Part shown: piece after piece, positions 1,285 through 57,208 of the stretch
Layout: every line of letters starts with the position of its first letter
Position numbering within the stretch: the first letter of the stretch is position 1
Source: a virus
Lineage: Duplodnaviria; Caudoviricetes
Virus record (IMG/VR): IMGVR_UViG_3300009031_000221
Coordinates: 472,054 to 536,053 of that record
Length of the DNA stretch: 64,000 bases
Direction: 5' to 3' (one strand)
Notes under the pieces: model-generated
The model's input: the letters and a program-made list of their open reading frames with translations, nothing else
The model's database searches: none
Told to the model about the DNA's origin: nothing
Made by a program: the position numbers and the translations under genes

Positions 1285-1626
1285 ATGGCTATTCTAGGTG
1301 TAGCGGGAAACAACCCCAATGGAAACGTGGTGATTCTGTCTGCGGATGACGCGGATGATGCGACCACGGCACAAATGTTGGAACAGGCAAAGTTGGCCTT
1401 CATTGATACTGCCAAGTATATCATCGTCGCGAATGTGGATATCTATACGAATACCCTGGATCTCAAGTACCTTGAAGGAAAGGTGCTATTCCTCCATGGG
1501 GAGGATATGAGCATGGACCAAGTCGATACCCTTCAAGGTCTTGTATCAGATGCTGTTGGGGATACCGATGTTGGCGTAATCATCACGAACTTTGAGATCA
1601 ATACGCGGGTGGTTGAATGTCGGTAA
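1285..1626 (+). CDS. hypothetical protein
   Basis: AAGGA RBS before ATG 1285 (MAILGV); stop overlaps next start. Confidence 0.6.
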   Translation: MAILGVAGNNPNGNVVILSADDADDATTAQMLEQAKLAFIDTAKYIIVANVDIYTNTLDLKYLEGKVLFLHGEDMSMDQVDTLQGLVSDAVGDTDVGVIITNFEINTRVVECR

Positions 1627-1940
1627 ACAAGTACACCATGCTCGTGGAGAAGCTCGCTACGGATGGCAAAGGCCAGATGACGTGCTTCGGCCAATCCATG
1701 ATGCCTATCCTCAAGTCCGGTGGAACCGTCACCTTTGAGAAGCGGGACTCCTATGCGGTAGGGGACATGGTATTCGCGAAGGTCAGGGGACGCTACATAG
1801 ATTGTCATTTGATTACAAAGGTTGGTTCGGATGGCAGGTTCATGATTGCCAATAACCATGGATGGGAAAACGGTTGGACGGACACCATTTACGGCAAGGC
1901 AGTTTCTGTGACCTACAAAGGCGAAACCAAGGAGTTGTAA
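1617..1940 (+). CDS. S24/S26 family peptidase-like protein
   Basis: GQSMMPILKSG catalytic-Ser motif, GDMVF, H-x-I-x-K segment. Confidence 0.7.
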   Translation: MSVNKYTMLVEKLATDGKGQMTCFGQSMMPILKSGGTVTFEKRDSYAVGDMVFAKVRGRYIDCHLITKVGSDGRFMIANNHGWENGWTDTIYGKAVSVTYKGETKEL

Positions 1941-1942
1941 CC

Positions 1943-2725
1943 ATGTGTGGAGCTACGTCAGACCTAATCATTTACGAAGGGCGGGCATATTCAGGTATGA
2001 TCCGTGACATGGTTCCACGTCATTCTACGGTGCCGGATTACGAAAACATGAACTGTTTCGGGTCTAGCCACATCTTGATATTTCAGGCAGGGTTAGGCGA
2101 ACCAATTGTAGCCCCATGGTTACTCATTCGTACCCCCACGAAAGAAAATGGCCCTGTCATAGATGAAATGCAGCCTGAGCCAATCCCCAAGTCTATTGAC
2201 GGGGTTGTATTGTCGGGCGTGTTTCGCCACATTGATTCATTCGGGTGCGGTTATCGCCTTGACACAACGTACCAGTATTTGTTTCAAGACGTCATACTGT
2301 TCCTCTATGACAACATAGAGTGCACTGAGCATGAACTAGTGATACGGAATTCCAAAGTCGTAGAACTCCGTAGCCTGGGTCCTGTCGCATATGAACGAGA
2401 TCCGCCTGAAAAGTTGAAAAAAAGGTACAACATCATCGCCCGTATGATGCGTGAACCAAATTGGCGCAACCGCATTTGGCGCACATTCACTGGATCCGAC
2501 GCACTTCGCCTAAGGATGAATTACAGAGGACTGTGGGAAGGCGAATACGAGTTCTTGTCTGAGGATGAGTTTTGGCAAGTCATTGAAAGGCATGCCAGCA
2601 GTTCCGGGCGCCTTAGTCTAGCTAGTGCTGTAATCGATGTGTCCGACACCCCCGTAAGAGGCCTCCATCAATTCCCGCATCCGTTTGTACGTCGAACCAA
2701 AGACATAGTTCAGTTCATACATTGA
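1943..2725 (+). CDS. hypothetical protein
   Basis: GGAG RBS before ATG 1943; operon continuity. Confidence 0.55.
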   Translation: MCGATSDLIIYEGRAYSGMIRDMVPRHSTVPDYENMNCFGSSHILIFQAGLGEPIVAPWLLIRTPTKENGPVIDEMQPEPIPKSIDGVVLSGVFRHIDSFGCGYRLDTTYQYLFQDVILFLYDNIECTEHELVIRNSKVVELRSLGPVAYERDPPEKLKKRYNIIARMMREPNWRNRIWRTFTGSDALRLRMNYRGLWEGEYEFLSEDEFWQVIERHASSSGRLSLASAVIDVSDTPVRGLHQFPHPFVRRTKDIVQFIH

Positions 2726-2735
2726 GAGAAACGAA

Positions 2736-3644
2736 ATGAAAACCAAAGTCCTGTTTGACATGGAAACGGGTGACCCGGATGACGTACTCACCCTGGCCTT
2801 GTTGGCTACGCATCCGAAGGCGGATCTACTTGGCGTGACCATCACTCCGGGTACTCCTGACCAAGTAGGCATCGTTCGTCATGTTCTAGATGCCGTGGGT
2901 CGTGGGGATCTTCCTGTGGGTGCATTCAACCTGGATCATGGGAAATCTTGCGTATCCGAATGGCACTACAAGACGTTCGGCAAAGTCCCACCAAGTAGGA
3001 ACGCCCTCAAGGGCTGGGAAACCCTTTGTGACTTGTGGGACGAAGACGTGACTTTGATCACGGGCGGACCCTTGAAGAACGTTGGGGCATTACTTCACCA
3101 ATTTCAGGCTGCCTGGAACAACGGTATCAAGAATCACCTTTGGCGTTTCGATGTAGGGAACATTGTCGTCCAAGGCGGGTTTGCCGGGGATGGGGTTGTG
3201 CCTTTTGAAATGCAATTGCCCAAGTTCCACGGACGAACCACGTGCCCAACGTACAACTTGAATGGCGATCCCACGTCTGCCAAATCCGTTCTGGCATTTG
3301 AGGAACTACGGGGCAAGCGGCACTTCGTGTCCAAGAACGTTTGTCATGGTGTTGTCTACGACCGGGAGATGCACGATATCGTATGTGCCGTCCCATGTCC
3401 CCATCCAGGCCTCGCCCTCATCAAACGGTCCATGGATGCCTACGTTGCCGGGGACGGCGCTAAGGCCTTGCATGACCCCTTGGCTGCCATGTGTGCCCTA
3501 TACCCTGAGATTGGGGTATGGGCAGAAGTAGAGATCTATCGGGAACGTGGAGAGTGGGGATCCAAGCTATCCCCCGGATCAGGAACATGGATCCTGATTG
3601 GATATGACAGGAAGCGCTTCTTGGAAGCCTTCTGCGAGGTCTAA
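2736..3644 (+). CDS. inosine/uridine-preferring nucleoside hydrolase
   Basis: N-terminal DMETGDPDD Asp-rich motif, TYN, C-terminal LHDPLAA. Confidence 0.85.
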   Translation: MKTKVLFDMETGDPDDVLTLALLATHPKADLLGVTITPGTPDQVGIVRHVLDAVGRGDLPVGAFNLDHGKSCVSEWHYKTFGKVPPSRNALKGWETLCDLWDEDVTLITGGPLKNVGALLHQFQAAWNNGIKNHLWRFDVGNIVVQGGFAGDGVVPFEMQLPKFHGRTTCPTYNLNGDPTSAKSVLAFEELRGKRHFVSKNVCHGVVYDREMHDIVCAVPCPHPGLALIKRSMDAYVAGDGAKALHDPLAAMCALYPEIGVWAEVEIYRERGEWGSKLSPGSGTWILIGYDRKRFLEAFCEV

Positions 3645-25441: not shown

Positions 25442-25753
25442 CTACACGCACAGATTTTCGCTGGCGGCTAAAGCTTTGTCCAAGTCCGATCCAATCAGGG
25501 CGTACAGTTCATCAGGGCTATAGCCCGGAAGTGCCGTTCCCGTGGAGTGCCAGTGTTCCGCTTTCACGTGGCACACCGGACACAAGGAAATGCCGTTTTC
25601 CGGCACGTAACCGCCATTAGGCATGTCATGGCGATCTAGGATATGATGAGCGTCTAGAGGGCCATCTTGACGGCATACACGGCATTTGTAGCCGTCCCGT
25701 GCAAAGGTTCTATCCCTGAACTGCTGCCGAACCTGTTTCTTGTCCAGCTTCAT
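25442..25753 (-). CDS. HNH endonuclease
   Basis: CRVC...LDAHHI...NGISLCPVCH. Confidence 0.85.
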   Translation of the reverse strand: MKLDKKQVRQQFRDRTFARDGYKCRVCRQDGPLDAHHILDRHDMPNGGYVPENGISLCPVCHVKAEHWHSTGTALPGYSPDELYALIGSDLDKALAASENLCV

Positions 25754-41995: not shown

Positions 41996-43102
41996 CTAAC
42001 CGAACATATCAGATATGGGATCTAGGATTCCATCGTGGGAACTCGGGGGGGGCATACCCAACAGACGATTATTCGCCATGTTAATATACGATTCATTCAA
42101 GTCCAATCCAATATAGTCTCGACCCTCAGTGAATGCAACGAGACCTGTTGTGGCGGAACCTGAGAAGGGATCCAAAACTACACACCGTTTCAATGATCCA
42201 TCCGGACATTTGCAATTAGATTGCAATGAATGACTATCACGACGTTCCCAAGGGGTTCCACAAGTTGCACAACACCCGTGTTGACTCGTACCCGCACGAA
42301 TCATGGGCATGACAAGATCTGTAGGCCAAGTGGCAAAGTGCGCTCCCTGATAGGATTGTGTGTTGACGTTCCATATCGTCCGTTTGTTTCGCCCTATTTG
42401 GCCATCAATATTCTGATTGCATGCCGTGCCGTATTCCCTAATGGCATTTGCATCGTAGAAGTACTTTTCGTTCTTCGTCATCAGGAAGATGTATTCATGC
42501 GATTTCGTGCATCGGTCCTTTACTGTCTCCGGCATTGGATTGGGTTTGGCCCAGATGATGTCATTGCGTAAATACCAACCATCTGCCTGAAGGGCGAATG
42601 CCACACGCCAAGGAATCCCTACCAAGTCCTTTGCTTTCATCCCCCCAATACCGACGGTGCTTTTCCTCATATTTTCAATGAATCCGGGTTTATTTGACGG
42701 AGCTTCATCATCGGGGACTTGACTATTGCCATGATAACCTGAATAAGAATCCCCGAAATTCAACCACAATGTTCCGTCATCACGTAGTACACGTTTGACT
42801 TCCCGAAACACTGCCACCATGTGCCCGACAAATGCCCATGGGTCTGCTTCTAACCCCAGGGCAACTGTTTGTGGTGGAATTGTTATTGTGGGCAAACCCA
42901 GTACAGGTGCAAATGTGACTTCGGGCCATGATTGTGGTGGAACACCGTAATCACGCAAACCCCAATACGGAGGAGAAGTTGCCGTCATGTGGACAGATCC
43001 ATTACCCAACAAGGATAACCCATCCAAAACATTCACCCCATAATACAGGGTGGCTGCCGGGGGATCATCCCCTATTGCCTTCAGGATCACTTTCGATTCC
43101 AT
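41996..43102 (-). CDS. DNA amino-methyltransferase (N4C/N6A, beta class)
   Basis: TSPPY, HFATWP, VLDPFSGSATT. Confidence 0.9.
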   Translation of the reverse strand: MESKVILKAIGDDPPAATLYYGVNVLDGLSLLGNGSVHMTATSPPYWGLRDYGVPPQSWPEVTFAPVLGLPTITIPPQTVALGLEADPWAFVGHMVAVFREVKRVLRDDGTLWLNFGDSYSGYHGNSQVPDDEAPSNKPGFIENMRKSTVGIGGMKAKDLVGIPWRVAFALQADGWYLRNDIIWAKPNPMPETVKDRCTKSHEYIFLMTKNEKYFYDANAIREYGTACNQNIDGQIGRNKRTIWNVNTQSYQGAHFATWPTDLVMPMIRAGTSQHGCCATCGTPWERRDSHSLQSNCKCPDGSLKRCVVLDPFSGSATTGLVAFTEGRDYIGLDLNESYINMANNRLLGMPPPSSHDGILDPISDMFG

Positions 43103-51958: not shown

Positions 51959-53281
51959 CTATTCGCCAAACATGGACGATATAGGGTCAACTACTTTGTC
52001 TTCGCTAGGCTTCTTGGGAGCGCTCAGGCCATTGAGACGAGCATAAGCCAAGTCCAGGTAATGACCCTTGTTCAGGTCCAATCCCGTGTAATTCCTACCT
52101 CCTGCCAAGGATACCACACCGGTTGTACCAGAGCCTGAGAACGTGTCCATGACCGTACACCGAATGGGTTCAAAGTCCGGGCATGTGCAGGACTTCTCCC
52201 AGCCCACGGTGATATGAGTGGACAAGGGCATCTCTCCGCCAAGGGATACGCGAGCGGAACTGGATATTCCACGATCGGTTGCCTTCTCGTAGACGCCGTA
52301 CTCCAGGTGCCGCCCTGTTGTATTGCCCACCTTGTCTACGATCCGATTCATCGGGGCAAGGCAGGTCGGGCAACATCCACGTTCACTGGATCCGGCCTTG
52401 ACCATCAAGTCAACCAAATCCGTAGGCCAAGTGGCAAAGTGTGCCCCGGGATACGATTCAGGGGATACGGACCATACGGAGCGCCTATTGCGGAGTGCCT
52501 GCATCAGGTCTTCCAAGGATACGTTCATCCCTCCATCCTGTGCCGCCGCCAACCGAGTTGCCATATGCTTATGTGCATTGGCCTTCATCCCAGGGGATTC
52601 CTCCCGAATGGCTTCCGTGTCAAAGAAGTACCGATCGGACTTCGCCAACAAGAAGATGTATTCATGCATCTTCGTAGGGCGATCCTGAACATTCTCAGGC
52701 AAACACGAGGGTTTGGCCCAGATGATGTCCGAACGCAGAATCCAACCATCCGCCTGAAGGGCAAACGCCACACGCCAAGGAATCCCCGCCAAGTCCTTTG
52801 GCTTGAGCCCATGAGGCGTGTTCGGGCGGAAACGCTGCCGTGCCGCACCACCATCATCCGAAAAGAAATCCCGCTTATCAGGATCCCCCATCGTCCCCGG
52901 TGCTGTGGAACAATAGGTGTCCCCCAAATTCACCCACAAGGTTCCTGACGGATGTAGCACCCGCTTGACCTCATGGAATACCTCAACGATGTGTTGAACG
53001 AACAAACCTGGGGTCGGTTCCTGTCCTAGCTCCCCTTGCCAAGCATTACATTTCGTGCATAGGGATTCCCCAGACCATTCATGGTCACAAGTACTATCCC
53101 CACCCCATACCGCAGGATCCGTACCATAGTCTCGCAAACCCCAATAAGGCGGGCTAGTCGCAACCATATGGATAGAATCTGCCGGGAGATCCCGAAGGCT
53201 ATTACGGCAATCCTGCCCATAATAAAGGTTCGCAACTGGAGGGTTATCCCCCGAAGAAGGGATAATTACAACGGGATCCAT
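51959..53281 (-). CDS. DNA amino-methyltransferase (beta class)
   Basis: TSPPY, HFATWP, MDTFSGSGTT. Confidence 0.9.
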   Translation of the reverse strand: MDPVVIIPSSGDNPPVANLYYGQDCRNSLRDLPADSIHMVATSPPYWGLRDYGTDPAVWGGDSTCDHEWSGESLCTKCNAWQGELGQEPTPGLFVQHIVEVFHEVKRVLHPSGTLWVNLGDTYCSTAPGTMGDPDKRDFFSDDGGAARQRFRPNTPHGLKPKDLAGIPWRVAFALQADGWILRSDIIWAKPSCLPENVQDRPTKMHEYIFLLAKSDRYFFDTEAIREESPGMKANAHKHMATRLAAAQDGGMNVSLEDLMQALRNRRSVWSVSPESYPGAHFATWPTDLVDLMVKAGSSERGCCPTCLAPMNRIVDKVGNTTGRHLEYGVYEKATDRGISSSARVSLGGEMPLSTHITVGWEKSCTCPDFEPIRCTVMDTFSGSGTTGVVSLAGGRNYTGLDLNKGHYLDLAYARLNGLSAPKKPSEDKVVDPISSMFGE

Positions 53282-54280
53282 TCATCCTCCAAACATATCA
53301 AGAAATGAGGTAACTTCAATTTCAGGTTCCGTATTCGCCGGGGGACTATTACCCAGAATACGGGCTTCAGCTAGCGGGAGATATTTGGCGTTCTGATCCA
53401 ATCCTACATAATCCCTACCAAGCTTGAGTGCTACCATACCCGTGGTGGCAGAACCTGAGAAGGGATCCAGAACGACACAGCTGGTATTTCCCGCTTCTTT
53501 GCATTGACATGGCGGCGCCCAGCTATTGCCCTCGATGCGCCCGTAGGGCGCCCCACATGCCCCGCAGCACCCTCGGGCACTCGATCCCGCCAATACCATC
53601 GGTTCTACTAACTTCTCAGGCCACACGGCGAAATGGGCACCAGGGTACGGCTTGGGGTTTACGTCCCATACCGTACGCTTGTTACGGGTTTCCCCTGTTG
53701 GGTTTCCCGTTTTTGCACGCGACCCCTTATCCTGACACATCGGTTCCTGATCCTTGCGACGATCCGTACGAAGATGCCGATTGTCCCCTGGAGTCACCGT
53801 CAACTCTTTGATGGCCTCGATATCGTAGAAGTACTTCTCATTCTTCGTCATCAGGAAGATGTATTCATGCGACCGTGTAGGACGGTCTTGCACACTCTCT
53901 GGCATCGGATTGGCCTTTGACCAGATAATATCTGAACGGAGATACCAACCATCCGCCCGCAACGCGAATGCAACCATCCAAGGGATGCCTACCAAATCCT
54001 TCGGTTTGAGCCCCGTGGTTTTCTTGCCGCGTCCAATTCCGGTGTTGCCATGAAGGTCAACAGCATGCTTTCCGCCTGTCTGCCCACCCCATTTACCATC
54101 ATTGGAATAGGAATCTCCCAGATTTAACCACAAAACCCCGTCGTCCCGAAGTACTCGTTTCACTTCACGAAATACTTCCGTCAAATGGCAAACGTAGCAT
54201 GCCCCGCATCGTTCGGGTATAGGTTTGAAAAACCTTTGAAGGTCTTCAGGGATTTGTTCTTGTGTAAATGTTATTTTCAT
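53282..54280 (-). CDS. C-terminal part of split DNA methyltransferase
   Basis: lacks SPPY; has EVFREVKRVL, HFAVWP, LDPFSGSATT. Confidence 0.8.
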   Translation of the reverse strand: MKITFTQEQIPEDLQRFFKPIPERCGACYVCHLTEVFREVKRVLRDDGVLWLNLGDSYSNDGKWGGQTGGKHAVDLHGNTGIGRGKKTTGLKPKDLVGIPWMVAFALRADGWYLRSDIIWSKANPMPESVQDRPTRSHEYIFLMTKNEKYFYDIEAIKELTVTPGDNRHLRTDRRKDQEPMCQDKGSRAKTGNPTGETRNKRTVWDVNPKPYPGAHFAVWPEKLVEPMVLAGSSARGCCGACGAPYGRIEGNSWAPPCQCKEAGNTSCVVLDPFSGSATTGMVALKLGRDYVGLDQNAKYLPLAEARILGNSPPANTEPEIEVTSFLDMFGG

Positions 54281-54304
54281 GGCACACTAGGGTTAGAGGT
54301 TGCT

Positions 54305-55087
54305 ATGTACAAAATTCGAGTATTTCAATGTTTGCATTGTCACAAAGAAGTCACGAAGCGAACCTATCCTAATGCTATTTTCTGTTCGCATTCATGTAGT
54401 CTTGCCCACCGCAATGATCCTACCCGAAACCCCGCCAAAACGGCTGAGGCCAGGGAAAAAATTGCATCTTCCCGTATAGGAAAACCCACTACTTTGGGTC
54501 GGGTTACCCCAGATGATCAGAAACAGAAAATCAGCGATTCCCTCAAAGGACGTGTGTTTACCGAGGAACATCGACAACACATCAGCGAAGGGGTTATTGC
54601 GGCAGGTATCATCCCGCCAAAACATTTTGGTGCAACCAACCACAAATGGAAAGGTGGGGTAACAGGAGAACGGGCAAAGAGATATGGATCGGAGGAGTAT
54701 CGGGGATTTGTCAAAAATTGTTTGATTCGTGACCAATACACATGCCAGCATTGCGGAGCCAAGAATGGGATGGGCGTTAATGTTGTCCTCCAGGTTCACC
54801 ATATCAAATCCTATGCAGAACATCCGTTATGCCGCTACGACCCAGATAATGGTATCACGCTATGCATCAGTTGCCATTACAAAACCCCGAAAGGATTGCC
54901 CAGGCCCATCAATCATACATGGACAGGACAAGATAAAGTATGTGTCCATTGCGGGGATACCTTTCGAGGACGTAACCCAAGAAAGTTCTGTCCCGCATGT
55001 AGATTGAAAATCTGCTGCCCGCTTTGTGGATCTACAGTTTGCACACATACGGCGCGACGTAATCTATCTAATAATTCCCCGCTTTAG
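54305..55087 (+). CDS. NUMOD3-HNH homing endonuclease (antisense, inside methyltransferase)
   Basis: AGAGG RBS; repeated KISxxxKG helices; RDQYTCQHCG..LQVHHIK..NGITLCISCH. Confidence 0.85.
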   Translation: MYKIRVFQCLHCHKEVTKRTYPNAIFCSHSCSLAHRNDPTRNPAKTAEAREKIASSRIGKPTTLGRVTPDDQKQKISDSLKGRVFTEEHRQHISEGVIAAGIIPPKHFGATNHKWKGGVTGERAKRYGSEEYRGFVKNCLIRDQYTCQHCGAKNGMGVNVVLQVHHIKSYAEHPLCRYDPDNGITLCISCHYKTPKGLPRPINHTWTGQDKVCVHCGDTFRGRNPRKFCPACRLKICCPLCGSTVCTHTARRNLSNNSPL

Positions 55088-55540
55088 GAGTTCCCGAAAC
55101 ACAAATTCTCGTTCAGATTCTGTCAAATCATCTCGAAGTTCTAGAAGCATATTATTCGAGGAAGGATTATGACAAGTTGGCGTTGGTTCCAATCCTAGCT
55201 GTCCCCGCCACGCGCCGCACTTGCAGTATTGCCCCCGCTCCGTTGGGTAGCCTCCAGCAAGTGCTACCGTGCCTTCCTTAGATCCATATTCATCCGTATA
55301 CATATGGCGACTATTCTGAGGGACGGGATCTCCCCACTCATGTTCGCAAGCTTCATCCCCACCCCAAACCGCAGGGTCATTTCCATAATCTCGCAAACCC
55401 CAATAAGGGGGCGACGTTGCGACCATGTGGACGCATTGCGGGGGGAGATCCTTCAAGGAAGCCCTGCAATCTTGGCCGTAGTAAAGATATGCACGTGGAG
55501 GATTGTCCCCACTGTGCCCAGGAATCACGAAGGGTTCCAT
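55064..55540 (-). CDS. N-terminal part of split DNA methyltransferase
   Basis: LYYGQDC, TSPPYWGLRDY, GQLGLEPTP, then stops; no SAM-binding motif. Confidence 0.8.
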   Translation of the reverse strand: MEPFVIPGHSGDNPPRAYLYYGQDCRASLKDLPPQCVHMVATSPPYWGLRDYGNDPAVWGGDEACEHEWGDPVPQNSRHMYTDEYGSKEGTVALAGGYPTERGQYCKCGAWRGQLGLEPTPTCHNPSSNNMLLELRDDLTESEREFVFRELLKRGIIR

Positions 55541-55543
55541 TCG

Positions 55544-56620
55544 CTATACCCCGCCGCACATACTCGAAATCAGATTCTCAGCCACATCATCATCGTCCGC
55601 ATCGGCGGATTTCGGAGCATGATTGAGCAATCGCCTTTGTGCCATTCCCAAGTACTCGGCATTCAGATCCAGGCCGATGTAATTGCAATGATTCTTGAAC
55701 GCTACAACGCCCGTCGTCCCTGATCCCGAGAACGGGTCCAGTACCACCCCGCCCTTCGGGCATCCGGCTTTAACGCATGGTTCAATGAGCCTGATGGGAT
55801 AGGTTGCAAAGTGCGCTTCCTGCGTCCCGCCCGTTGGAATATGCCACACCGTACGCTTGTTCCGTCCCAGGGGATTACCAGGAGGGCCGCCTGCATAAGC
55901 GGCAGCAAGGTTCCCACCCGACCGTGTCCCGGTAGCATGCCCTTCCTTGTGCCCATCTACCGTAAATCCTTCCGTCAAACCATCAGTCCGCAAGTCACCC
56001 TTGCCTCCCCGATAATCCGAGGCTGCAACATCGCTAGGGTTCCACGATTTATGAGGTTCACGGATAGCGTCGATGTTGTAGTAATACTTCGCACTCTTGG
56101 TCATCAAGAAAATGAATTCATGTGCCCGTGTCGGACGATCCATGGAAGGTTCCGGCATTGGATTCGGCTTTGACCACACAATGTCCGACCGAAGATACCA
56201 ACCCTGGGCCTGAAGGGCGAATGCCACACGCCAAGGAATCCCAATCAGGTTCTTTGGAGGGAGCGCCGTAACCAAATCAGGGTTTTCCAGATTCCAAGGG
56301 GAACTAACCGTCATAGGGCGCATCGTGAATGAATCCCCCAGATTCAGCCACATTGTACCTTCATCCTTCAGAACCCGATGGCACCCCATGAGAACTTCCA
56401 CGAGTTCCCGTACGTAATCATCTGGGGATCCCTCCACCCCAATCTGACCATCCTTGCCGCCGTAATCCCGCAACGCCCAGTAAGGCGGGGATGTTACAAT
56501 GGTATCTACGGACTTATCAGGAAGTTGAAGGAGGGACTTCCGACAATCTTGACCGTAATAGAGAGTGGCTTGAATGGGATCGTCTAAATGCTTAGGGGAC
56601 AGAACAATCTCTGGCTGCAT
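55544..56620 (-). CDS. DNA amino-methyltransferase (beta class)
   Basis: TSPPY, HFATYP, LDPFSGSGTT. Confidence 0.9.
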   Translation of the reverse strand: MQPEIVLSPKHLDDPIQATLYYGQDCRKSLLQLPDKSVDTIVTSPPYWALRDYGGKDGQIGVEGSPDDYVRELVEVLMGCHRVLKDEGTMWLNLGDSFTMRPMTVSSPWNLENPDLVTALPPKNLIGIPWRVAFALQAQGWYLRSDIVWSKPNPMPEPSMDRPTRAHEFIFLMTKSAKYYYNIDAIREPHKSWNPSDVAASDYRGGKGDLRTDGLTEGFTVDGHKEGHATGTRSGGNLAAAYAGGPPGNPLGRNKRTVWHIPTGGTQEAHFATYPIRLIEPCVKAGCPKGGVVLDPFSGSGTTGVVAFKNHCNYIGLDLNAEYLGMAQRRLLNHAPKSADADDDDVAENLISSMCGGV

Positions 56621-56656: not shown

Positions 56657-57208
56657 TCAAATTGAGGCGGGAATAAAGTGCTGAATACAACGTGCGGCAT
56701 ATTTATCGGCGCCACCGGTTTCTACCAAATCTGTTGAAGATGTTAGCCTTTGGCTACGGATAGCGTCCTCCCCACATACCGTACAAACTGCCGTCAATTT
56801 GTCTACCCGTTCAGCAATTGCCAACAGGAAAGGCATTGGCCCAAATGGTTGCCCCCCAGCATCCATATCCAGACCGTTGATAATCACTCGAATGCCTCTC
56901 AAGGCTAGCGTTTCCGCTACTTTTACAATGCCTGGGGCAAAGAACTGCGCCTCCTCAATGCCCACAACATGGGCATCCCCTACCAAATCCAGCATCATCT
57001 CGGGGCGGCTATTGGGAATGCTAACGGCGGGCCAATCCTTGCATGAGTGCGTTTCCACCTTGTCATTTTCGCATCGGTTGTCAATGTCGGGCTTGAACAC
57101 AATCACAGGACGTTTGGCGATGACGGATCTTTCCACACGTCGAATCAATTCAGAGGTTTTACCAGAAAACATGCAACCCGTGATGACTTCTACCCTTCCT
57201 TTCAGCAT
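56657..57208 (-). CDS. tdk: thymidine kinase (type II)
   Basis: GCMFSGKTSEL, EEAQF, GLDMDAGGQPF, CTVCG, YAARC. Confidence 0.92.
   Translation of the reverse strand: MLKGRVEVITGCMFSGKTSELIRRVERSVIAKRPVIVFKPDIDNRCENDKVETHSCKDWPAVSIPNSRPEMMLDLVGDAHVVGIEEAQFFAPGIVKVAETLALRGIRVIINGLDMDAGGQPFGPMPFLLAIAERVDKLTAVCTVCGEDAIRSQRLTSSTDLVETGGADKYAARCIQHFIPASI

What the first reader, a model, noticed from the sequence alone, without database searches (positions are those of the whole stretch)
53282..55540. Methyltransferase split into catalytic and SAM-binding halves by an antisense HNH gene
Seen: 55540-55064 has SPPY and ends ...GLEPTPTC plus a 35-aa helical extension. 54280-53282 starts with a 24-aa prefix, then CGACYVCHLTEVFREV and the FSGS motif. 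An HNH gene on the opposite strand fills the gap, starting 24 nt from the C-part ATG, which has no clear RBS. Both halves are otherwise free of stops. Established precedent: phage Aeh1 nrdA is split by mobE and the fragments assemble into an active enzyme. Inference: a two-chain methylase reassembling through the extensions or Cys ligands, or complemented by the paralogs.
Basis: partly seen in the sequence, partly recalled or inferred. Interest (0 to 1): 0.68.

Follow-up and report, generated by a model that had tools for sequence, protein, structure and literature searches.

The report
Mobile cassette splits phage DNA methyltransferase
A DNA methyltransferase gene of a 536-kb phage is cut in two by a 975-bp mobile cassette carrying a backwards homing-nuclease gene. 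The cassette also encodes two short conserved peptides, one on each enzyme half, which probably clip the halves back together, so the enzyme may survive invasion without an intron or an intein.

Summary
A beta-class (SPPY) DNA methyltransferase on the minus strand is interrupted between its LGLEPTP motif and the following helix. The N-half is 55064-55540, an HNH gene lies on the plus strand at 54305-55087, and the C-half is 53282-54280.

The two "extensions" are not read-through debris. The tail (LRDDLT..E..YV..EL) and the prefix (IP.HL.KYF) form a conserved peptide pair. It occurs in about 55 fetched loci and 141 protein clusters, at five or more positions in amino-methyltransferases. It was found in no other gene family.

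The DNA between tail and prefix varies. It can hold HNH genes (sense or antisense), Vsr-like nucleases, nuclease remnants, or only 14-28 nt. Rare in-frame fusions also exist.

Codon patterns show selection on the peptides themselves. An ortholog with 62-71% amino-acid identity keeps every part intact (dN/dS about 0.1). AlphaFold models of two natural fusions give a confident strand-helix / helix-strand unit that is split in its loop.

Best reading: a homing cassette that splits the enzyme and supplies a non-covalent clasp, giving a two-chain methylase. Reassembly itself is inferred, not shown. No intron, intein or recoding signal was found. This scan noted the same cassette before on other DNA; I found no published description.

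The parts
55178..55540 (-). N-half, host part (residues 1-121): leader, strand with catalytic SPPY motif IV, Cys/His-rich insert, LGLEPTP
   Evidence: It matches a profile of unsplit relatives at positions 2-123, E 2e-50. 64% identical to the ortholog in L034.
55064..55177 (-). Cassette tail in the methyltransferase frame (residues 122-158 plus TAG stop), containing the LRDDLT..E..(Y/F)V..EL..G motif
   Evidence: Conserved in stand-alone N-fragments. The profile search found 141 clusters, 108 of them with the motif at the C-terminus. Invariant residues use 2-6 synonymous codons each (4-6 for L, R, T, V). 71% identical to L034.
54305..55087 (+). HNH homing-endonuclease gene (260 aa): N-terminal zinc finger, NUMOD3-like repeats, HNH core, C-terminal Cys cluster. 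Antisense to the methyltransferase
   Evidence: Pfam PF01844. PHROG HNH families, best 8e-19. 70% identical to the L034 ortholog, dN/dS 0.10-0.12. Homologous antisense HNH genes in L014, L016, L048, L061 and L066.
54281..54304 (.). 24-nt spacer between the divergent start codons. On the + strand it holds the HNH ribosome-binding site (AGAGG); on the - strand it has no Shine-Dalgarno for the C-half
   Evidence: It is 23/24 identical to L034, although the coding parts share only 62-71% amino-acid identity. A similar 10-nt element (CCTCTAACCC) lies before the C-half ATG in L014, L061 and the nuclease-free L018.
54203..54280 (-). Cassette prefix in the methyltransferase frame (ATG plus residues 2-26), containing the IP..L..(Y/F)F motif
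   Evidence: Conserved in front of C-halves at all sites. This region was not used in any search pattern, yet invariant P, L and F use 4, 5 and 2 codons. 70% identical to L034.
53282..54202 (-). C-half, host part: helix after the break, WLNLGD strand, motifs up to DRPT/HEY, variable target-recognition region, AHFA.WP, motif I (FSGS..TTG)
   Evidence: PF01555 at 4e-35. The profile of unsplit relatives resumes at position 122/123. 62% identical to L034, dN 0.33 with saturated dS.
54203..55177 (.). The whole inserted cassette (975 bp): tail, antisense HNH, spacer, prefix
   Evidence: Boundaries come from alignment to unsplit relatives and to the in-frame fused forms P0035, P0355 and L017.

Best explanation
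A 975-bp homing cassette (54203-55177) sits inside a beta-class, probably N4-cytosine (SPPY), DNA methyltransferase gene. In the host frame it supplies 37 codons and a stop on one side, and a start codon and 25 further codons on the other. Between them, on the opposite strand, it carries its own HNH/NUMOD3-type endonuclease gene. Two polypeptides are therefore made: one of 158 aa with the catalytic motif IV, and one of 332 aa with the rest of the fold, the target-recognition region and the SAM-binding motif I. The cassette-encoded tail (strand + long helix) and prefix (short helix + strand) form one small unit that holds the two chains together. The methylase therefore stays active and the selfish nuclease gene costs the phage little. 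This is the job an intron or intein does elsewhere, done here by non-covalent docking. The nuclease presumably cuts cassette-free alleles and spreads the cassette by recombination in co-infections.

Shown: the anatomy, the recurrence of the module at several sites with exchangeable nuclease cargo, peptide-level selection, and long-term retention of all parts.

Inferred: physical reassembly, enzyme activity, and homing by this particular HNH.
For: (1) The break is clean. Unsplit relatives run straight through it.
(2) Tail and prefix are conserved in about 55 fetched loci and in 141 clusters of a 1.84-billion-protein library. In 108 of those clusters the tail lies within 6 residues of the C-terminus.
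(3) The same pair occurs after SPPY.GLR.Y, after LGLEPTP, after WLNLG.S, after IP.R.A..., before AHFA/HPT.KP, and in a second methyltransferase subfamily.
(4) Invariant residues are coded by 2-6 synonymous codons (4-6 for L, R, T, V, P). Third positions vary 0.5-0.7 at most of them while first and second positions mostly do not, and this includes the prefix, which no search pattern touched.
(5) The ortholog L034 keeps the N core, tail, HNH, prefix and C core at 62-71% identity. dN/dS is 0.10-0.12 for HNH and for tail+prefix. The halves show dN 0.30-0.33 with saturated dS.
(6) The split persists without a nuclease gene (L018 with a 28-nt gap, L022 with 14 nt) and with decayed ones (L015 remnant; L021 is L025 with a 254-nt deletion).
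(7) AlphaFold2 models of two natural in-frame fusions predict strand-helix / helix-strand. pLDDT is 88-95 for the module in P0035 and 85-94 for the tail helix in L017. The split point falls in the connecting loop.
(8) The HNH can be more similar than its host gene between loci: L014/L061 share 68% against 41%. HNH and tail+prefix have dS of about 1.6-1.8 where the host halves are saturated. Both fit a cassette that moves between alleles.
Against: No experiment or transcript or protein data exist. Contacts between tail and prefix were not read from coordinates, and no two-chain model could be run. The C-half ATG has no Shine-Dalgarno and lies 783 nt from the N-half stop, behind an antisense gene, so how it is translated is unexplained. 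The module was found only in methyltransferases, which is odd for a general-purpose clasp and may point to a methylase-specific role. Three intact paralogs lie in the same genome, so this copy could be dispensable. The dS-based argument for mobility rests on short sequences.
Confidence: 0.7

Rival explanations
1. The conserved tail/prefix module serves another purpose than reassembly. It might be a DNA- or partner-binding element, a signal tied to expression or immunity of the nuclease, or a regulator of the methylase. The halves may then not form one enzyme; the C-half might, for instance, work with a paralog's N-terminal part.
For: The module is restricted to amino-methyltransferases. Three intact paralogs share the same N-terminal leader in this window. 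Structure look-alikes of the module are generic beta-alpha-beta units with no functional label.
Against: The module sits at five or more unrelated surface positions and is always broken in its middle. A fixed binding function would not need that. In fused forms it is a compact unit whose two pieces come from the two chains. Motif IV and motif I are each on one chain only, so neither half can be active alone (established knowledge of beta-class methyltransferases).
Confidence: 0.13
2. The split gene is a dead or dying copy. The insertion inactivated it, the open halves reflect a recent event, and the paralogs carry the function.
For: Paralogs are present. There is no Shine-Dalgarno before the C-half. 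Some related loci look damaged; L017, for example, has a disrupted SPPY region.
Against: Window and L034 have diverged to 62-64% in both halves, with saturated dS, no stop and no frameshift. All motifs are kept, and tail+prefix has dN/dS 0.12. Dozens of loci keep both halves.
Confidence: 0.07
3. One continuous protein is restored by RNA splicing (group I/II intron), by protein trans-splicing (split intein), by ribosomal bypass or by stop-codon recoding.
For: The fractured-gene layout with split inteins around a free-standing nuclease gene is known (PMC2677866). T4 gene 60 couples a nuclease gene with a bypass element (own knowledge). Cys residues flank this particular junction.
Against: A permissive Rfam scan of 52500-56500 found nothing. 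The peptides are under protein-level selection. Nuclease-free loci have only 14-28 nt between stop and start. Tail plus prefix is about 60 aa, has no Hint blocks and no Pfam intein hit, and no conserved nucleophile at the junctions of the other sites. All three stop codons are used after the tail; L034 uses TAA. Reading TAG through in the window hits TAG and TAA again and never reaches the C-half frame. A 783-nt gap is far beyond any known bypass.
Confidence: 0.05

Closest known systems
Aeromonas phage Aeh1 nrdA-a / mobE / nrdA-b 'genes in pieces' (Edgell laboratory, cited in PMC2677866; details from own knowledge)
   Same: [quoted passage not shown] The insertion supplies the new stop and start, and the two chains assemble without splicing.
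   Different: Here the insertion brings a conserved tail/prefix peptide pair that recurs at five or more sites of one enzyme family and with different nuclease cargo in either orientation. In the window the nuclease is antisense. No activity data exist.
[quoted passage not shown] 2009, PMC2677866)
   Same: The layout is host N-part + element N-piece, then a nuclease gene (HNH or Vsr-like), then element C-piece + host C-part. Both are known mainly from metagenomes. A Vsr-like cargo also occurs here (L023, L033).
   Different: The flanking pieces total about 60 aa, lack Hint motifs and conserved junction nucleophiles, and cannot splice. Joining would be non-covalent.
ShiLan domain / hidden HNH insertions in actinophage DNA methylases (PMC9957025, PMC11855218)
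   Same: The host family (phage N4/N6 DNA methylases) is the same, the cargo is an HNH homing gene, and no intron or intein is detectable. The methylase is thought to tolerate the insertion.
   Different: ShiLan keeps the host frame open through the insertion and gives one chain. The window's cassette terminates and restarts translation, giving two chains, and has dedicated end peptides. An open-frame antisense HNH of the ShiLan kind does occur as a second insertion in L015 and L016.
Naturally or artificially two-chain DNA methyltransferases (M.AquI and M.EcoHK31I, own knowledge; M.SssI fragment complementation, PMC3404938, title and abstract only)
   Same: They show that methyltransferase fragments can associate into an active enzyme.
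   Different: Those are C5-cytosine enzymes split in the variable region, without a mobile cassette or docking peptides.
Phage T4 mobA plus gene 60 bypass cassette (own knowledge)
   Same: A homing nuclease gene travels with a short element that rescues expression of the gene it interrupts.
   Different: Rescue there is by ribosomal hopping over 50 nt within one mRNA. Here there are two separate translation products.

Membership tests
Beta-class N4/N6 amino-DNA-methyltransferase (Pfam PF01555) | Catalytic motif IV (S/D/N)PP(Y/F) | tested here: met
   SPPY at residues 43-46 of the N-half.
Beta-class N4/N6 amino-DNA-methyltransferase (Pfam PF01555) | SAM-binding motif I (F.G.G) lying C-terminal to motif IV and the recognition region (beta order) | tested here: met
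   An FSGS..TTG motif lies near the C-half end. The fused relative folds like CcrM, M.RsrI and M.PvuII.
Beta-class N4/N6 amino-DNA-methyltransferase (Pfam PF01555) | Profile match above the curated cut-off | tested here: met
   The C-half scores 122 bits against a cut-off of 26.7. The N-half alone has no Pfam hit, but matches a profile of unsplit relatives at E 2e-50.
Beta-class N4/N6 amino-DNA-methyltransferase (Pfam PF01555) | Methyl transfer to DNA | not testable with these tools
   Needs an enzyme assay.
HNH homing endonuclease gene | HNH catalytic motif | tested here: met
   PF01844 at 25 bits against a cut-off of 21.4. PHROG HNH families, best 8e-19.
HNH homing endonuclease gene | Presence/absence polymorphism at the same site in related genes | tested here: met
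   Occupied: window, L034, L014, L016, L048, L061, L066. Remnant: L015. Empty: L018. Fused: P0035, P0355, L017. Unsplit relatives have no cassette.
HNH homing endonuclease gene | Site-specific cleavage of the cassette-free allele | not testable with these tools
   Needs a cleavage assay.
Genes in pieces (nuclease-split gene with assembling halves, Aeh1 nrdA type) | Host gene divided into two intact ORFs by a free-standing nuclease gene | tested here: met
Genes in pieces (nuclease-split gene with assembling halves, Aeh1 nrdA type) | Both halves kept under purifying selection | tested here: met
   Window against L034: dN 0.30-0.33 with saturated dS, no disruptions.
Genes in pieces (nuclease-split gene with assembling halves, Aeh1 nrdA type) | Halves assemble into an active enzyme | not testable with these tools
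   Only single-chain models of natural fusions could be made.
Split intein / fractured gene | Hint-domain blocks and junction nucleophiles (Cys/Ser/Thr at position 1 and +1, terminal Asn) | tested here: not met
   No intein Pfam hit. Tail plus prefix is about 60 aa. Junction residues vary between sites. The predicted fold is strand-helix / helix-strand.
Group I/II intron carrying a nuclease gene | Ribozyme core detectable, and intron sequence free of peptide-level constraint | tested here: not met
   No Rfam match at E up to 1. There is a synonymous-codon pattern in the host frame. Nuclease-free loci have only 14-28 nt between the ORFs.
ShiLan-type hidden HNH insertion | Host reading frame stays open through the insertion | tested here: not met
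   The host frame stops at the TAG at 55064-55066, with further stops in frame.

The most novel reading that the evidence does not exclude
The tail/prefix pair is a third kind of vehicle for homing endonuclease genes, beside self-splicing introns and inteins. It would be a portable 'split-and-clasp' cassette that cuts its host protein in two and supplies the two halves of a small docking unit. On this reading it has colonised at least five sites in two subfamilies of phage DNA methyltransferases, exchanges its nuclease cargo (HNH sense or antisense, Vsr-like), and survives loss of the nuclease as a stable two-gene enzyme or an in-frame scar.
Probability: 0.55. Interest if true: 0.85.

Novelty: new variant of a known kind. 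Interest (0 to 1): 0.78.

Why it matters
Homing endonuclease genes are thought to persist inside essential or useful genes only when an intron or an intein removes them from the product, with Aeh1 nrdA as a lone exception. This cassette family suggests a general, evolved alternative: the element brings its own docking peptides, so the interrupted enzyme works as two chains.

If confirmed, it would add a class of mobile element and explain many "truncated" methylase ORFs in phage metagenomes. It would also yield a natural, compact (about 60 aa) heterodimerising tag pair that tolerates insertion at several positions of a Rossmann-fold enzyme, which is of interest for split-protein engineering. 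Finally, it would show that gene fission and later re-fusion in phage genes can be driven by selfish nucleases.

Tried and rejected
- **Group I/II intron:** a permissive Rfam scan found nothing, and no clean splice junction restores the family's two-residue spacing (reading).
- **Split intein:** no Hint signal and the pieces are too small.
- **Inteins in relatives:** P0025 and P0034 carry inteins, but at other sites, after DIIW and after AHFA.
- **Stop-codon recoding:** rejected. All three stop codons are used after the tail across loci, and read-through never joins the halves.
- **Read-through debris:** rejected by conservation.
- **Module in other gene families:** not found. The exact-motif hits outside methylases were internal, non-terminal chance matches: 1 of 11 viral, 9 of 54 metagenomic and 13 of 15 genomic. 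One profile hit (P0247) is an artificial His-tagged repeat protein.
- **Close relatives in named phage records:** none; only 6-7% of the query matched, at about 70% identity.
- **The search for related loci with the halves:** gave one distant locus and nothing more.
- **The look-up of encoding contigs:** Contexts were obtained instead by degenerate DNA patterns.
- **Promoter/terminator scan:** uninformative, with fewer hits than in shuffles.
- **Other copies in this genome:** no second copy of the module in the 536-kb genome.
- **Not done:** a two-chain structure prediction and inspection of model coordinates were not possible with these tools.
Full report
**Setting.** The window is the last 64 kb of a 536-kb IMG/VR virus record that CheckV rates as complete. 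Positions 51959-56620 of the minus strand hold three tandem paralogous amino-methyltransferase genes. A fourth lies at about 41999-43099. The middle one of the tandem three is the finding.

**Observation.**
- The N-part is 55064-55540 (158 aa). It carries SPPY and follows the family up to LGLEPTP at residue 121.
- The C-part is 53282-54280 (332 aa). After 26 extra residues it resumes the family at the helix that normally follows EPTP-xx. It carries the remaining motifs and motif I (PF01555, 122 bits).
- Unsplit relatives run straight through this point, so no host residue is missing.
- An HNH gene lies on the plus strand at 54305-55087. It has its own AGAGG ribosome-binding site. It overlaps the N-part end by 24 nt and starts 24 nt from the C-part ATG.
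- The inserted DNA is therefore 54203-55177, 975 bp.

**The extensions are a conserved module.**
- A search for proteins of similar length found many stand-alone N-fragments of 140-160 aa. Their last 25-35 residues resemble the window's "extension", with the core LRDDLT..E..YV..EL..G.
- A regular-expression pass over all hits showed the same tail on fragments cut at other positions of the methyltransferase. It also found one unsplit protein (P0035) in which the tail runs directly into a sequence like the window's prefix.
- I back-translated the tail core into a degenerate DNA pattern and scanned three collections. This gave 10 of 11 true hits in viral contigs, about 45 of 54 in metagenomes, and 2 of 15 in species-representative genomes. 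The remaining hits were internal chance matches.
- A profile of the tail alone was searched against 1.84 billion representative proteins. It found 141 clusters at E of 0.001 or better. In 108 the tail ends within 6 residues of the C-terminus, five are in-frame fusions, and one is an artefact.

**Sites and host range.**
- I mapped fragments onto a profile of unsplit relatives. The N-fragments end and the C-fragments resume at the following positions:

| Profile position | Location | Clusters |
|---|---|---|
| about 59 | after SPPY.GLR.Y | 16 |
| 122/123 | after LGLEPTP (the window's site) | 16 |
| about 162/190 | after WLNLG.S | 48 |
| about 220 | after IP.R.A... | 23 |
| about 313 | before AHFA | 4 |

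- A further group of about 14 clusters belongs to a second methylase subfamily, cut before its HPT.KP motif.
- Wherever the downstream DNA was available, the C-fragment begins with the same prefix: a start codon, a short hydrophobic-alternating stretch, then IP.HL.KYF.
- Every host is an amino-methyltransferase. The 536-kb genome has only this one copy.

**Cargo between tail and prefix**.
- Antisense HNH/NUMOD3 genes: window, L034, L014, L016, L048, L061, L066, L019, L029, L036, L043, L058.
- Sense HNH genes: L020, L026, L037.
- Vsr/DUF559-like genes: L023 (sense), L033 (antisense).
- Small HNH-like genes without a Pfam hit: L025, L039, L059 (sense) and L070 (antisense).
- A 79-aa remnant: L015.
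- A copy with a 254-nt internal deletion: L021 compared with L025, otherwise about 99% identical.
- Nothing at all: a 28-nt gap in L018 and a 14-nt gap in L022.
- A fused frame: P0035, P0355, L017, P0363, P0287.

So the module is the constant and the nuclease is exchangeable. This is the pattern known from the invasion, decay and loss cycle of introns and inteins.

**Selection.**
- In 29 non-identical loci the invariant residues are encoded by 2-6 synonymous codons: 4-6 for L, R, T, V and P, and both available codons for D, E and F. Their first and second codon positions are mostly fixed, while third positions vary by 0.5-0.7 at most of them.
- This also holds for the prefix, which played no part in any search pattern. 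The constraint is therefore on the peptides, not on DNA or RNA.
- L034 (contig Ga0194120_10005086) is an ortholog of the entire locus. Identities are N core 64%, tail 71%, HNH 70%, prefix 70% and C core 62%.
- dN/dS is 0.10-0.12 for HNH and 0.12 for tail+prefix. The halves have dN 0.30-0.33 with saturated dS and no disruption.
- A gene that died at the time of insertion would not look like this.
- HNH and tail+prefix have an unsaturated dS of 1.6-1.8. In the pair L014/L061 the HNH proteins are 68% identical while their host halves are 41% identical. Both observations hint that the cassette moves between alleles, but the sequences are short.

**Structure.**
- AlphaFold2 models were made of two natural in-frame fusions, using an alignment that includes the fragments.
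- The P0035 model has mean pLDDT 80.8; the L017 model has 75.6. Both give the same module: a short strand just before LRDDLT, a 14-17-residue helix, a loop, a 6-residue helix over HL.KY, and a short strand.
- pLDDT is 88-95 for the module in P0035 and 85-94 for the tail helix in L017.
- The natural break lies in the loop. The rest of the model is a beta-class methyltransferase fold, with CcrM, M.RsrI and M.PvuII as best matches.
- Structure look-alikes of the module alone are generic beta-alpha-beta units.
- I could not read coordinates or run a two-chain model. Contact between tail and prefix is therefore inferred from topology.

**Mechanism.**
- Shown: the methylase gene is interrupted by a cassette that terminates and restarts translation in frame and carries an intact, selected nuclease gene. 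The cassette ends encode a conserved peptide pair.
- Inferred, at about 0.7: the pair forms a small clasp that reassembles motif IV (N-chain) with motifs V-VIII, the recognition region and motif I (C-chain). The HNH enzyme spreads the cassette into empty alleles.
Other sites lack these residues, so the clasp cannot depend on them in general.
- Unexplained: how the C-half is translated. The 24-nt spacer has no Shine-Dalgarno on that strand, yet it is 23/24 identical to L034. A related 10-nt element also precedes the ATG in nuclease-free L018.

**Rivals.** An intron, a split intein, ribosomal bypass and recoding were tested and not supported. A pseudogene is unlikely given L034. A different, methylase-specific role for the module cannot be excluded, and its restriction to methylases is the main reason for caution.

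**Comparison with the known.**
- It works like the Aeh1 nrdA/mobE genes-in-pieces case.
- It has the layout of the fractured genes of Dassa et al. (PMC2677866), but the flanking pieces are not inteins.
- The ShiLan "hidden HNH" insertions of actinophage methylases (PMC9957025, PMC11855218) affect the same host family. They keep one open frame; that variant occurs as a second insertion in L015 and L016 but not in the window.
- Four full-text searches found no description of the tail/prefix cassette. The library is incomplete, so this is weak evidence of novelty.
- Earlier notes of this scan report the same cassette on other DNA. I reached it independently and took from those notes only the ShiLan literature lead.

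**Verdict.** I rate it a new variant of a known kind (a nuclease-split gene), and it may amount to a new class of nuclease vehicle. Interest 0.78.

Noticed in passing
L016:2030-2662 (-) inside the C-half ORF 1372-3102 (+); L015:2013-2627 (-) inside 1524-3185 (+): A second, complete HNH gene (PF01844) lies antisense inside the C-half, just before the AHFA motif. The methyltransferase frame stays open through all of it. This is an antisense counterpart of the published ShiLan 'hidden HNH' insertion.
   Followed up: partly
window 54281-54304; also L034, L014, L061, L018 just upstream of the C-half ATG: A 10-nt element (CCTCTAACCC on the methyltransferase strand) is conserved before the C-half start. 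On the other strand it is the HNH ribosome-binding site. It is also present in L018, which has no nuclease gene, and it is 23/24 identical between the window and L034 despite about 35% protein divergence. Its role on the methyltransferase strand is unknown.
   Followed up: partly
P0025, P0034, P0290, P0363, P0365 (relatives, not in the window): The same methyltransferase family carries LAGLIDADG-type inteins after DIIW, after AHFA and near the LGLEPTP site. Some sit in the same protein as a tail/prefix module. The family is a hot spot for several kinds of selfish insertion.
   Followed up: partly
L033:2410-3594 (-) and about 14 clusters such as P0272, P0288, P0337: A second methylase subfamily (motifs ARFF ... 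KAS..ER, then HPT.KP) ends with the same tail just before its HPT.KP motif. In L033 the cargo is a 416-aa antisense ORF with a DUF559/REase-like domain. The matching prefix was not located.
   Followed up: partly
L021 against L025 and L078: Two nearly identical phage contigs (about 99%) differ by a 254-nt deletion. It removes the 5' part of the sense-strand nuclease gene and extends the N-fragment tail by read-through. This catches nuclease decay in progress.
   Followed up: yes
window 41999-43099, 51959-53281, 55544-56620 (all -): Three further intact paralogs of the split methyltransferase are 47-57% identical to one another and to the split gene where aligned, and differ mainly in the central variable region. 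The two that flank the split gene abut it, with gaps of 0 and 3 nt. No restriction enzyme was looked for.
   Followed up: no
window 25559-25717 (-) and about ten other places in the 536-kb genome: Other HNH-motif ORFs are scattered through the genome (PF01844 matches). None of them is associated with a tail/prefix module.
   Followed up: no
window 56657-57208 (-): A thymidine kinase gene (PF00265, 2e-45) lies directly upstream of the methyltransferase cluster.
   Followed up: no
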